A model generated the notes under the pieces. It made no database searches and was not told where the DNA came from. It saw nothing but the letters and a program-made list of their open reading frames with translations. The translations under genes and the position numbers were made by a program. Below, piece by piece: positions 1,196-1,746 of a stretch of 64,000 nt of DNA (position 1 is its first letter; each line of letters begins with the position of its first letter). The DNA comes from Minisyncoccota bacterium. GTDB lineage: Bacteria > Patescibacteriota > Minisyncoccia > Phycocordibacterales > BOKC01. The stretch lies in the NCBI GenBank assembly GCA_030583745.1, contig CP129473.1, positions 442,783-506,782 of the forward strand, in the 5' to 3' direction.

Positions 1196-1309
1196 GCATC
1201 ACGCGAAGCGCGATGCCAGGCTTTAGGAAATTAGGCTTTAGGCTCTAGGAAATTCCTAGGGCCTAGTGCCTAATGCCTAGCGCCTAACATCACATTCCAT
1301 GTGATGCAC
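1196..1309 (-). other. Insertion in 23S rRNA with terminal inverted repeats GCATCAC...GTGATGC; candidate intervening sequence (IVS) at helix 25
   Basis: About 115 nt absent from the conserved 23S core. TAGG-rich internal palindrome (ctaggaaattcctag). The ends pair as a closing stem. Confidence 0.5.
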
Positions 1310-1613
1310 CCGCTCTGACTCTTTGTAGGCATATGGTTTCAGGTCTATTTCACCGCCCTCACCGGGCTGCTTTTCACCTTTCCCTCACGGTACTAGTTCA
1401 CTATCGGTCTCTAACGATATTTAGCCTTACCGGTTAGTTCCGGCAGATTCACCCGAGCTATTGATGTCTCGAGTTACTCAAGAATAACAGCAAAGGAGTT
1501 TTTCTTGTTTTCGCCTACGGGGCTATCACCTCCTAGGGCTTCTCTTTCCAGAGAATTCGGCTAACAAAAAAATATTTTTTACTCCTCTGGCTAGGCCACA
1601 CTGTCATCTTACA

Positions 1614-1746
1614 ACCCCCAACCGCATCACGCCAAGCGCGATGTCTGTAGGCACTAGGTGCTAGGATGTTAGGCGCTAGCTTTTTACTAGAACCTAAATC
1701 CTAATTTCCTAAAGCCGGCAGTATCACACGCAGTGTGATGCGGTCG
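1614..1746 (-). other. Second insertion in 23S rRNA with a 10-bp terminal inverted repeat ACCGCATCAC...GTGATGCGGT; candidate IVS at helix 9 region
   Basis: Same terminal motif as the first insert (GCATCACGC-AAGCGCGATG). Lies about 240 nt from the 23S 5' end. Confidence 0.5.

What the first reader, a model, noticed from the sequence alone, without database searches (positions are those of the whole stretch)
1196..1746. Two hairpin insertions at the classical IVS hotspots (helix 9 and helix 25 regions) of the 23S rRNA
The minus-strand 23S contains two blocks of about 115-135 nt (1196-1309 and 1614-1746) that are absent from the conserved core. The second block is flanked by a perfect 10-bp inverted repeat (ACCGCATCAC ... 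GTGATGCGGT) and the first by GCATCAC ... GTGATGC. Both therefore fold as long closed stem-loops.

Both begin with the same GCATCACGC-AAGCGCGATG motif and are TAGG-rich inside (ctaggaaattcctag palindrome). They sit about 240 nt and about 540-670 nt (after subtracting the first insert) from the 23S 5' end. Those are the positions where RNase III-excised intervening sequences occur in other bacteria, producing fragmented 23S rRNA.

The same window encodes a TIGR02436 four-helix-bundle protein (16907..17248), the family originally found inside such IVSs. The TAGG-rich cores also resemble the dispersed TTTAGGG-like intergenic repeats elsewhere in the window.
Basis: partly seen in the sequence, partly recalled or inferred. 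Interest (0 to 1): 0.6.

Follow-up and report, generated by a model that had tools for sequence, protein, structure and literature searches.

The report
Paired hairpin inserts in 23S rRNA
The 23S rRNA gene of this tiny-genome Paceibacterota (CPR) bacterium carries two related 112-118-nt hairpin inserts at the tips of helices 15 and 25. They are ordinary in kind, being intervening sequences that are probably cut out of the rRNA, but they belong to a conserved, apparently copy-and-paste family shared across CPR bacteria.

Summary
Both insertions are real: minus strand, 1741..1624 and 1307..1196, inside a 23S gene (1..2011) of a Candidatus Paceibacterota MAG.

- **Position.** One caps helix 25, a classical IVS site. 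The other caps helix 15 (E. coli ~270-281), not helix 9.
- **Structure.** Each folds into a ~50-bp hairpin that continues the host helix (-71 and -78 kcal/mol, z -7.7 and -9.2).
- **Family.** The two are paralogues. Their family shares a ~20-bp basal duplex (5' GCAUCAC-A-NNNN-R-UGUGAUG, 3' CAUCGCG-C-UUNG-C-GUGAUGC). I found it in about 19 Patescibacteria species, at seven rRNA helix tips (23S H10, H15, H25, H45, H63, H68; 16S h6) and once in a 23S leader.
- **Support for the duplex.** It shows covariation and folds better as sense RNA.
- **Cores.** They are 7-nt tandem repeats, specific to each genome rather than to each site.
- **Distribution.** The inserts are sporadic. 45 of 62 related 23S sequences have a ~19-nt helix 15 interval, and 47 of 51 have a short helix 25.

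Best reading (0.6): IVSs excised from pre-23S by an RNase III-type enzyme, giving fragmented rRNA, and copied between hairpin tips at the DNA level. Excision is inferred, not shown. The TIGR02436 gene is unlinked. Short ORF-less insertions in CPR 23S genes are already published, so this is a new member of a known kind.

The parts
1..2011 (-). 5' part of the 23S rRNA gene (model positions 1-1774), cut by the window edge. No 16S gene lies upstream. It follows rplJ-rplL, a 205-aa ORF and an MscS-like gene.
   Evidence: RF02541, 1349 bits. Neighbouring genes.
1624..1741 (-). IVS-A, 118 nt (GCAUCAC...GUGAUGC). It replaces the loop of helix 15 (E. coli ~270-281). The host stem CGACC/GGUUG lies at 1746-1742 and 1623-1619.
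   Evidence: cmscan shows 115 nt in place of 5 loop positions of model 274-297. Fold -71.4 kcal/mol, z -7.7. E. coli mapping. Identical in independent same-species assemblies (L094) and present at the same positions in L130 and L136, whose 23S is 99.8% identical.
1196..1307 (-). IVS-B, 112 nt. It is inserted at the tip of helix 25 (E. coli ~542-544).
   Evidence: cmscan places the insertion between model 583 and 584. Fold -78.0 kcal/mol, z -9.2. Present in L130 and L136.
1723..1741 (-). 5' half of the conserved basal module of IVS-A (GCAUCAC-A-CUGC-G-UGUGAU).
   Evidence: Pattern match. Family alignment A3.
1624..1643 (-). 3' half of the conserved basal module of IVS-A (CAUCGCG-C-UUGG-C-GUGAUGC).
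   Evidence: Exact pattern match, none expected by chance. Pairing with the 5' half is supported by covariation.
1289..1307 (-). 5' half of the conserved basal module of IVS-B (GCAUCAC-A-UGGA-A-UGUGAU).
1196..1215 (-). 3' half of the conserved basal module of IVS-B (CAUCGCG-C-UUCG-C-GUGAUGC).
1644..1722 (-). Core of IVS-A: a hairpin built of 7-nt units (UUUAGGA, AUUAGGA, UUUAGGU and so on) with their complements on the other arm.
   Evidence: Best 5'-arm period is 7. It aligns better to the reverse complement of the IVS-B core (0.73 vs 0.64; 30 of 32 over the 5' arm).
1216..1288 (-). Core of IVS-B: a hairpin built of 7-nt units (CUAGGCA, UUAGGCA, CUAGGCC and so on) with their complements. The apex is CCUAGGAAUUUCCUAG.
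   Evidence: TRF finds period 7 at 1255-1286. 5'-arm self-match at lag 7 is 0.72.
1587..1599 (-). Short hairpin (GUGUGGCCUAGCC) at a third variable site, probably helix 16a. Other strains of the same species carry a hairpin about 68 nt longer here, with unrelated ends.
   Evidence: Alignment with L094. The same gap appears in L130 and L136.

Best explanation
The two blocks are intervening sequences (IVSs) of one sequence family, sitting at the tips of 23S helices 15 and 25 of a Candidatus Paceibacterota (Patescibacteria/CPR) bacterium.

**Shown**
- Each element replaces a small terminal loop and extends the host helix into a ~50-bp duplex.
- Its base is a conserved ~20-bp module: 7 bp, an A-C mismatch, 3-4 bp, an R-C mismatch, then 7 bp that include two U-G pairs. 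Both strands of the module read nearly the same 5' to 3'.
- Its upper part is a genome-specific hairpin of 7-nt repeats.

**Inferred**
- The element is transcribed as part of pre-23S rRNA.
- The duplex is cut on both strands by a dimeric double-strand-specific RNase, most likely RNase III acting in or next to the conserved module.
- The excised hairpin is degraded and the ends are not rejoined.
- The mature 23S would then consist of non-covalently held pieces: about 265 nt, about 315 nt, and the remainder.

**Inferred, on origin**
- Copies spread within a genome from one exposed rRNA hairpin tip to another by a DNA-level copying or conversion process of unknown enzymology.
- Copies persist only where the cell can cut them out of the transcript harmlessly.
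For: **Position and fold**
-.

**Host**
- The window's SSB, four-helix-bundle and L7/L12 proteins are identical to WKZ26224.1, WKZ26223.1 and WKZ26211.1. These are annotated as a 'Candidatus Paceibacterota bacterium' MAG on a 691,769-bp contig.

**Family**
- An exact scan of 185,579 species genomes with the 3' module gave 74 loci.
- About 50 are chance matches in coding genes, such as SecY of Sphingomonadales.
- All rRNA-located hits (about 19 loci) are Patescibacteria, apart from one unlabelled 'bacterium' MAG (L006).
- They show the same architecture at 23S H10, H15, H25, H45, H63 and H68, in a 23S leader, and at 16S h6.

**The module pairs as RNA**
- 90.5% of cells are paired, against 77.5% in shuffles. 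The covariation score is 0.408 against 0.160 (0 of 500 shuffles reach it). Slid controls score 0.053-0.102.
- The pair X2-N occurs as G-C 12, U-A 6, A-U 4 and U-G 4, and is never unpaired.
- Sense RNA folds better than antisense in 19 of 22 elements (p 2e-4). The effect lies in the modules (21 of 22), not in the cores (10 of 22).

**Sporadic distribution**
- Same-species assemblies carry both elements.
- Most relatives at about 78-83% 23S identity have a 6-8-bp helix-15 stem, often capped by a GCAA tetraloop, and a short helix 25.
- PMC4990558 describes classical IVSs in the same way: a tetraloop replaced by an extended stem-loop.

**Paralogy**
- Core identity within a genome is 0.52-0.91. Between genomes it averages 0.49 (sd 0.11). 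At the same site in different genomes it averages 0.51.
- L039 has two nearly identical copies (about 7 differences over ~150 nt) at different sites. The homology starts at the GCAUCAC end and stops at the GUGAUGC end.

**Literature**
[quoted passage not shown] CPR insertions 'are removed from their transcripts' (PMC11270868).
- The RNase III-excised Coxiella IVS also carries tandem heptameric repeats, at whose start RNase III cuts (PMC4990558).
Against: - No RNA data were available, so neither excision nor fragmentation is shown for this organism or for any member of the family.
- No RNase III gene was found among ten 206-262-aa ORFs of the window. The window covers only 64 kb of a roughly 692-kb genome, so this says little.
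- Near-perfect conservation of 20 bp across very deep CPR lineages is more than RNase III is known to need. It may point to another, sequence-specific partner.
- Helices 15 and 25 carry retained expansion segments in mycobacteria (PMC5737476), so retention is physically possible.
- The 5' module can also fold as a local hairpin: 96.6% paired, with 2 compensatory changes at A16-U22.
Confidence: 0.6

Rival explanations
1. Retained expansion segments. The hairpins stay in the mature 23S as solvent-side double-stranded rods, and the conserved 20-bp module is a binding platform for a protein or another RNA.
For: - Helices 15 and 25 lie on the solvent side and carry retained expansions in Mycobacterium (PMC5737476).
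- All sites used by the family are peripheral variable hairpin tips.
- The module is conserved far beyond what generic double-stranded RNA would need.
- No RNA evidence exists either way.
Against: - Presence is sporadic among relatives.
- Hairpin tips in this rRNA vary even between strains.
- Cores are genome-specific, non-polar and sometimes inverted. That is not expected of a functional rRNA part.
- A copy also sits in a 23S leader, which is not part of the mature rRNA (L039).
- CPR rRNA insertions are reported as removed from transcripts (PMC11270868).
Confidence: 0.2
2. A miniature inverted-repeat DNA element. The conserved ends are binding sites for a transposase or recombinase, and any RNA-level behaviour is incidental.
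For: - The ends are inverted repeats: GCATCAC... at the 5' end and the reverse complement of the 3' end, GCATCACGC....
- There are several copies per genome, and two nearly identical copies at different sites.
- Cores can be flipped relative to the ends, which points to a DNA-level event.
- Each end is a palindrome at the DNA level.
Against: - No target-site duplication is visible at any junction (sequences).
- Every copy is in an rRNA operon and in the same orientation as the rRNA.
- There is no copy elsewhere in the 64-kb window.
- The ends keep U-G pairs that work only in the sense transcript.
- The X2-N covariation links the two ends to each other, not the two halves of one end.
- No candidate transposase is associated with the elements.
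Confidence: 0.1
3. Protein-dependent introns. The hairpin is cut out and the two 23S ends are religated, for example by an RtcB-type ligase, which leaves a continuous 23S.
For: - The module has a 3-4-bp central helix flanked by two symmetric irregularities. This loosely recalls the bulge-helix-bulge motif.
- CPR rRNA genes are rich in true introns (PMC11270868).
Against: - The irregularities are 1x1 mismatches, not 3-nt bulges.
- No group I or group II intron model matches the elements at gathering score or at E <= 0.001.
- Characterised bacterial hairpin IVSs are not religated (PMC4990558).
Confidence: 0.05

Closest known systems
Classical RNase III-excised 23S rRNA intervening sequences (Salmonella, Proteus, Helicobacter helices 25 and 45; Yersinia, Campylobacter, Leptospira, Coxiella helix 45; Alphaproteobacteria helix 9)
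   Same: - A small terminal loop of a surface helix is replaced by an extended stem-loop.
- Complementary ends form a stem of 20 bp or more.
- Distribution among relatives is sporadic.
- Helix 25 is used.
- The Coxiella IVS even has tandem heptameric repeats (PMC4990558).
   Different: - One copy sits in helix 15, which is not a classical site.
- The family also uses H10, H63, H68, a 23S leader and 16S h6.
- The ~20-bp basal duplex is nearly identical in sequence across very distant lineages.
- Copies at different helices of one gene are paralogues.
- Excision is untested here.
Short ORF-less, non-intron insertion sequences of CPR rRNA genes (Tsurumaki et al. 2024, PMC11270868; Brown et al. 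2015 as cited there)
   Same: - The host is a CPR bacterium.
- Length is 100-200 nt, with no ORF and no intron model match.
- The element sits at the top of a stem-loop.
- That paper also takes such insertions to be RNase III-type IVSs.
   Different: The main text and the one held supplementary text file of that paper classify insertions by length, intron model and ORF. They do not mention the conserved GCAUCAC-type ends, the heptad cores or the within-genome paralogy. Its threshold of 100 bp or more relative to E. coli and its site numbering cannot be matched exactly to helix 15.
ORF-bearing IVSs that encode the S23p / TIGR02436 four-helix-bundle protein (Leptospira, Coxiella, Xanthomonas; some CPR insertions)
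   Same: - Same kind of host site and the same terminal-stem logic.
- The same genome encodes a TIGR02436 protein.
   Different: - The elements here are 112-118 nt and encode nothing.
- The TIGR02436 gene lies 15 kb away, between ssb and rpsR.
- No homologue lies near family members elsewhere.
Miniature inverted-repeat elements whose transcripts are cut by RNase III (for example Neisseria Correia elements; my own knowledge, not checked here)
   Same: - Size of about 100-150 bp.
- Terminal inverted repeats and multiple copies.
- A hairpin forms when the element is transcribed.
   Different: - No target-site duplication.
- Found only in rRNA operons and only in the sense orientation.
- The core is built of heptad repeats.
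Retained rRNA expansion segments at H15, H16a and H25 (Mycobacterium; PMC5737476)
   Same: The same helices are extended on the solvent side.
   Different: Those segments are fixed within a lineage and are part of the mature ribosome. The elements here are sporadic and paralogous, and one family member lies outside the mature rRNA.

Membership tests
RNase III-type rRNA intervening sequence (IVS) | Replaces the terminal loop of a peripheral rRNA helix | tested here: met
   cmscan puts both inserts at hairpin tips. Most relatives have a 6-8-bp stem, often with a GCAA tetraloop, at helix 15 and a short helix 25.
RNase III-type rRNA intervening sequence (IVS) | Complementary ends form a long double-stranded stem continuous with the host helix | tested here: met
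   MFE folds of -71 and -78 kcal/mol, z -7.7 and -9.2. 90.5% of cells are paired across 26 family members, with covariation.
RNase III-type rRNA intervening sequence (IVS) | Sporadic presence among related organisms, not a lineage-wide segment | tested here: met
   45 of 62 related sequences have a short helix-15 interval and 47 of 51 a short helix-25 interval. Only the window's own species and L156 carry a family member.
RNase III-type rRNA intervening sequence (IVS) | Located at a classical hotspot (helix 9, 25 or 45) | tested here: inconclusive
   IVS-B is in helix 25, which meets the criterion. IVS-A is in helix 15, E. coli ~270-281, which does not. The hotspots are listed in PMC4990558.
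RNase III-type rRNA intervening sequence (IVS) | Absent from mature rRNA, with 23S present as fragments | not testable with these tools
   No RNA data were available. There is only the general literature statement that CPR insertions are removed from transcripts (PMC11270868).
RNase III-type rRNA intervening sequence (IVS) | Cleavage carried out by RNase III | not testable with these tools
   This needs an enzyme assay. No rnc gene was found among the ten window ORFs scanned, but most of the genome lies outside the window.
Short ORF-less insertion sequences of CPR rRNA genes | Host belongs to the CPR / Patescibacteria | tested here: met
   Exact protein matches to a Candidatus Paceibacterota MAG. 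The 23S is closest to Parcubacteria loci.
Short ORF-less insertion sequences of CPR rRNA genes | 100-250 nt, no group I or II intron model, no protein domain | tested here: met
   The elements are 112 and 118 nt. Only the LSU model matches the regions at E <= 0.001.
Group I / group II rRNA introns | Match to an intron covariance model | tested here: not met
   No intron family at gathering score in 1-8000, or at E <= 0.001 in the two regions. The elements are also too short.
ORF-bearing S23p / TIGR02436 IVS | The four-helix-bundle ORF lies inside the insertion | tested here: not met
   The gene is at 16907-17248, within rpsF-ssb-[gene]-rpsR. tblastn finds no homologue in any family locus.
Miniature inverted-repeat transposable element | Terminal inverted repeats | tested here: met
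   GCATCAC... at the 5' end and the reverse complement of the 3' end, GCATCACGC....
Miniature inverted-repeat transposable element | Target-site duplication and dispersal through the genome | tested here: not met
   The flanks are complementary (the host stem), not direct repeats. There is no copy outside the 23S in the window. All family hits in the species-genome scan lie in rRNA operons.
Archaeal-type bulge-helix-bulge intron | Two 3-nt bulges separated by a 4-bp helix | tested here: not met
   The module has two 1x1 mismatches around 3-4 bp and no bulges.

The most novel reading that the evidence does not exclude
The two inserts may belong to a CPR-wide family of mobile, self-removing hairpin cassettes. 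On this reading, the conserved dyad-symmetric 20-bp module serves two roles. It is the signal for excision from the rRNA precursor, and it marks the boundary of a unit that is copied from one exposed hairpin tip of the rRNA operon to another. The heptad-repeat core would be a fast-evolving, flippable filler. The observations behind this are the nearly identical copies at different sites, the genome-specific cores, and a homology that stops exactly at the GCAUCAC and GUGAUGC ends. If true, the old question of how IVSs arise and spread would become directly testable in a group where such events are recent and frequent.
Probability: 0.35. Interest if true: 0.7.

Novelty: new member of a known kind. 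Interest (0 to 1): 0.45.

Why it matters
For this window, the result settles what the two blocks are. They are IVS-type hairpins in a CPR 23S gene, one at a non-classical site, and most likely they lead to a fragmented 23S rRNA.

The practical consequences are small but real:
- Such elements break short-read assemblies. Two Logan contigs end 13 and 70 nt before the elements.
- They inflate rRNA gene length.
- They can mislead rRNA-based alignment and probe design for CPR bacteria.

The wider interest is the family:
- It has a sequence-conserved basal duplex shared by Saccharibacteria, Paceibacterota and other CPR lineages.
- It occurs at seven rRNA helix tips and in one 23S leader.
- It includes recent intragenomic copies.

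This offers a concrete system for asking how IVSs are recognised and how they move. Cultivated Saccharibacteria might allow experiments, if the cultured strains carry family members, which I did not check.

Tried and rejected
1. **Covariance model.** Model R1, built from 26 'mini-hairpins' (both modules joined by GAAA), matched generic terminator-like hairpins and not the real elements. I dropped it and used mismatch-tolerant pattern scans instead.
2. **Reaching the 23S of relatives through neighbouring proteins.**
   - The first ORF version of the MscS-like protein and the 417-aa dockerin protein had no exact record.
   - Contigs found through the 205-aa, 232-aa and L7/L12 proteins stop before or inside the 23S.
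   - The metagenome DNA scan solved the problem.
3. **Literature searches.** Searches for the motif strings and for the assembly accessions gave nothing useful. Brown et al. 2015 and Pronk & Sanderson 2001 are not held. No paper on a CPR ribosome structure was found.
4. **Rejected identities.**
   - Group I or II intron: no Rfam match.
   - Bulge-helix-bulge intron: no bulges.
   - ORF-bearing S23p IVS: no ORF, and the gene lies elsewhere.
   - Assembly artefact: the same elements appear in three independent assemblies.
5. **Chance hits.** Most hits of the species-genome scan were chance matches in coding genes, for example SecY 'SLIALGVMPYIT' in Sphingomonadales. I set them aside.
6. **Leader-trailer stem.** I looked for a pre-23S leader-trailer stem carrying the module in the same-species locus L136 and saw none.
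7. **RNase III gene.** I scanned ten ORFs of suitable size in the window and found none.
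Full report
**What is in the sequence**

Window 1..2011 (minus strand) matches the bacterial LSU rRNA model from position 1 to 1774 and is cut by the window edge (1349 bits). 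Two stretches have no counterpart in the model.
- The first replaces 5 loop positions of the hairpin at model 274-297 with 115 nt.
- The second is inserted between model positions 583 and 584, at the tip of the helix at 573-595.

With up to 3 mismatches, the 20-nt 3' motif occurs exactly twice in 64 kb and never in 100 shuffles. The 5' motif also occurs only at these two places.

As RNA, each region folds into one closed hairpin that continues the host helix:
- -78.0 kcal/mol, z -9.2;
- -71.4 kcal/mol, z -7.7;
- no shuffle of 200 is as stable.

Counted from GCAUCAC to GUGAUGC, the elements are 1741..1624 (118 nt, IVS-A) and 1307..1196 (112 nt, IVS-B).

**Where they sit**

I fetched an E. coli rrn operon and mapped the flanks.
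- IVS-B lies at E. coli ~542-544, the tip of helix 25. This is a classical IVS site.
- IVS-A lies just after GGAGCCCA (E. coli 263-270), at about 270-281.

The IVS-A site is the hairpin that many bacteria have between helices 14 and 16 and that E. coli lacks, helix 15. Helix 15 is a documented expansion site in Mycobacterium, Thermotoga and Leptospira (PMC5737476). It is not helix 9. Helix 9 (model ~130-150) is an ordinary short hairpin here. The three usual IVS sites are helices 9, 25 and 45 (PMC4990558).

**Whose genome it is**

The window's SSB, four-helix-bundle and L7/L12 proteins are identical to NCBI entries annotated 'MAG... [Candidatus Paceibacterota bacterium]', on a contig of 691,769 bp. 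The 23S is closest to Parcubacteria-type loci (74-91% by aligned segment; 68-69% to E. coli).

The host is therefore a CPR/Patescibacteria bacterium. In this group 82% of 23S genes carry insertions. Short ORF-less, non-intron insertions have already been proposed to be RNase III-type IVSs (PMC11270868).

**The two inserts are paralogues and belong to a family**

The two elements share their ends. An exact scan of one genome per species (185,579 species) with the 3' motif returned 74 loci.
- About 50 are chance matches inside protein-coding genes, mostly a conserved SecY segment of Sphingomonadales.
- About 19 are Patescibacteria rRNA loci: Saccharibacteria, Parcubacteria/Paceibacterota, and Taylor-, Kaiser-, Nomura-, Staskawicz-, Vogel- and Zambryskiibacteria. 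One of them, L006, is labelled only 'bacterium'.

In those rRNA loci the motif is always the 3' end of a hairpin insertion with the same architecture:
- 5' end: GCAUCAC-A-X1X2X3X4-R-UGUGAUG;
- a variable core;
- 3' end: CAUCGCG-C-UUNG-C-GUGAUGC.

The insertion sites, in E. coli numbering, are:

| Gene | Position | Helix |
|---|---|---|
| 23S | ~156-171 | H10 |
| 23S | ~278-281 | H15 |
| 23S | ~542-544 | H25 |
| 23S | ~1166-1173 | H45 |
| 23S | ~1710-1743 | H63 |
| 23S | ~1868-1870 | H68 |
| 23S leader | 66 nt upstream of the gene | - |
| 16S | ~72-106 | h6 |

Several genes carry two or three copies (L068, L029, L007, L022, L071).

**The conserved module is an RNA duplex**

I joined the two ends of 26 elements and counted pairs for the long-stem model.
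- 90.5% of cells are paired, against 77.5% in shuffles.
- The covariation score is 0.408 against 0.160 (0 of 500 shuffles reach it). Slid controls score 0.053-0.102.
- Much of the covariation comes from the host-helix flanks, which differ by site.
- Inside the element, the pair X2-N is decisive: G-C 12, U-A 6, A-U 4, U-G 4, none unpaired.
- The first pair of the element also changes C-G to U-A or U-G.

The duplex is 7 bp, an A-C mismatch, 3-4 bp, an R-C mismatch, then 7 bp with two invariant U-G pairs. Both strands read almost the same 5' to 3'.

Sense RNA folds better than antisense in 19 of 22 elements (mean 6.7 kcal/mol, p 2e-4). All of the effect lies in the modules (21 of 22) and none in the cores (10 of 22). 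Every copy has the orientation of the rRNA.

A local hairpin of the 5' module alone is also compatible with the data. This follows from the dyad symmetry.

**The cores**

In all 22 elements tested, the best self-match of the 5' arm is at a lag of 7 nt. The cores are arrays of heptads, with the complementary heptads on the other arm.

The cores are specific to each genome, not to each site:
- identity within a genome is 0.52-0.91;
- identity between genomes averages 0.49 (sd 0.11);
- identity at the same site in different genomes averages 0.51.

In the Taylorbacteria locus L039, two copies at different sites differ at only about 7 positions over ~150 nt. The homology starts at the GCAUCAC end and stops at the GUGAUGC end.

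In the window, the IVS-A core aligns better to the reverse complement of the IVS-B core (0.73 against 0.64; 30 of 32 over the 5' arm). The same is seen for one pair in L029. Cores can therefore be flipped while the ends keep their polarity, which points to DNA-level events.

The RNase III-excised Coxiella IVS also contains tandem heptameric repeats whose number varies between strains, and RNase III cuts at the start of the first repeat (PMC4990558).

**Not a lineage-wide expansion**

A metagenome scan with a 21-mer just 5' of helix 15 gave 71 loci.
- Two (JAANMX010000802.1 and JAANMU010001008.1) are the same species (99.8% identical 23S) and carry both elements. A Logan contig (L094) that reaches only as far as helix 15 carries an identical IVS-A. 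The elements are therefore not assembly artefacts.
- Among 62 distinct sequences, the helix-15 interval is 17-25 nt in 45. It is often a 6-8-bp stem closed by GCAA.
- The helix-25 interval is 40-50 nt in 47 of the 51 sequences where it could be measured.
- The window has 131 and 151 nt.
- Only L156 has another family member at helix 15. A few others have unrelated insertions there.

**Mechanism**

*Shown by computation:*
- position at helix tips;
- a long duplex;
- a conserved, sense-polar basal module with covariation;
- sporadic distribution;
- paralogy.

*Inferred:*
- The elements are transcribed within pre-23S.
- They are cut on both strands by a dimeric double-strand-specific RNase, most likely RNase III.
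- The ends are not religated, which would leave 23S pieces of about 265 nt, about 315 nt and the remainder.

The inference rests on three things. The first is the analogy with characterised IVSs, where a tetraloop is replaced by a stem-loop, the terminal stem is 20-28 bp and RNase III cleaves it (PMC4990558). The second is the report that CPR insertions are removed from transcripts (PMC11270868). The third is the fact that one family member lies in a leader, which is not part of the mature rRNA.

I put this reading at 0.6. The main rival is retention as expansion segments (0.2). A purely DNA-level miniature transposon (0.1) and protein-dependent splicing with religation (0.05) are less likely, for the reasons given under each rival.

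How copies move is unknown. There is no target-site duplication, no associated enzyme gene, and no copy outside rRNA operons.

**The other claims of the finding**

- *TIGR02436 gene.* The gene at 16907-17248 is real. It sits between ssb and rpsR in the rpsF-ssb-rpsR operon and is truncated in some strains. No homologue lies near family members in other genomes. I see no link to the inserts beyond the historical name of the family.
- *Dispersed TTTAGGG-like repeats.* Heptamer arrays of TTAGGGT / ACCCTAA type occur at 10739-10870, 18381-18405, 31788-31820 and 34994-35041. They share the 7-nt period and 6 of 7 bases with the UUUAGGA/UUUAGGU units of IVS-A. Nothing outside the rRNA aligns to the inserts beyond chance 10-13-mers, and IVS-type hexamers are not enriched outside the inserts. 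The resemblance is real at the level of the repeat unit but unproven as homology.

**Novelty and score**

Short hairpin insertions in CPR 23S genes are published, and IVSs are a known kind. As given, the finding is a new member of a known kind, with one wrong helix label.

The following features are not mentioned in the main text or the one held supplementary text file of the paper that surveyed these insertions:
- the cross-CPR basal module;
- the heptad cores;
- the use of H10, H15, H63, H68 and 16S h6;
- the within-genome paralogy.

I could not check Brown et al. 2015. Interest: 0.45.

Noticed in passing
window 10739-10870, 18381-18405, 31788-31820, 34994-35041: There are intergenic arrays of 7-nt units of TTAGGGT / ACCCTAA type, some next to TTGGCT-like words and just upstream of genes (for example rpsF). 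At 10739-10870, G-rich units are followed by complementary C-rich units. The same arrays occur in same-genus contigs L075, L076 and L080. Their function is unknown. They share the period and 6 of 7 bases with the IVS-A core units.
   Followed up: partly
window 16907-17248 (minus): The TIGR02436 / PF05635 four-helix-bundle gene is inserted between ssb and rpsR in the rpsF-ssb-rpsR operon. In other strains it is shortened to 76-101 aa, so it appears to be decaying.
   Followed up: partly
window 1587-1599 (minus); L094 4190-4275; L130; L136: This is a strain polymorphism at a third 23S hairpin tip, probably helix 16a. The window has a 13-nt hairpin, whereas other strains of the same species have a hairpin about 68 nt longer (CCCCUCACUUGG...CCCAAGUGAGGGG), with ends unrelated to the family.
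   Followed up: partly
L136 570-4032 (minus), the same-species full 23S; outside the window: The 3' half of this species' 23S has a 39-nt hairpin at the helix-68 tip, with family-like ends (GCAUCAUUUUGAGCGUGAUAGACGCGCCCAAAAUGAUGC). It also has an insertion of about 570 nt near E. coli position 1917 that matches no Rfam intron model at gathering score.
   Followed up: partly
window 2012-5465: The 23S gene is not preceded by a 16S gene. It follows an L10 leader (5342-5465), rplJ, rplL, a 205-aa ORF and an MscS-like gene, all on the minus strand. The rRNA genes of this genome are therefore unlinked.
   Followed up: no
L093 and L094 (Logan contigs of the same species): These short-read contigs end 13 nt before IVS-A and 70 nt before IVS-B. 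The repeated ends of the elements may break assemblies of these rRNA genes.
   Followed up: no
window 58019-58150: A 63-nt unit is repeated 2.1 times (95% matches). It directly abuts tRNA-Ser(TGA) at 58149-58235.
   Followed up: no
window 54730-54801: ARAGORN calls a tRNA-Arg with anticodon GCG, next to tRNA-Val(TAC).
   Followed up: no
L018 445-476 and 5404-5435; L021 339-369, 5790-5819 and 7550-7577; L010 and L004 at several places: Period-7 arrays with the same unit as a locus's family IVS recur elsewhere in the same CPR rRNA locus. Heptad-core hairpins with other, non-canonical ends probably exist there too.
   Followed up: no
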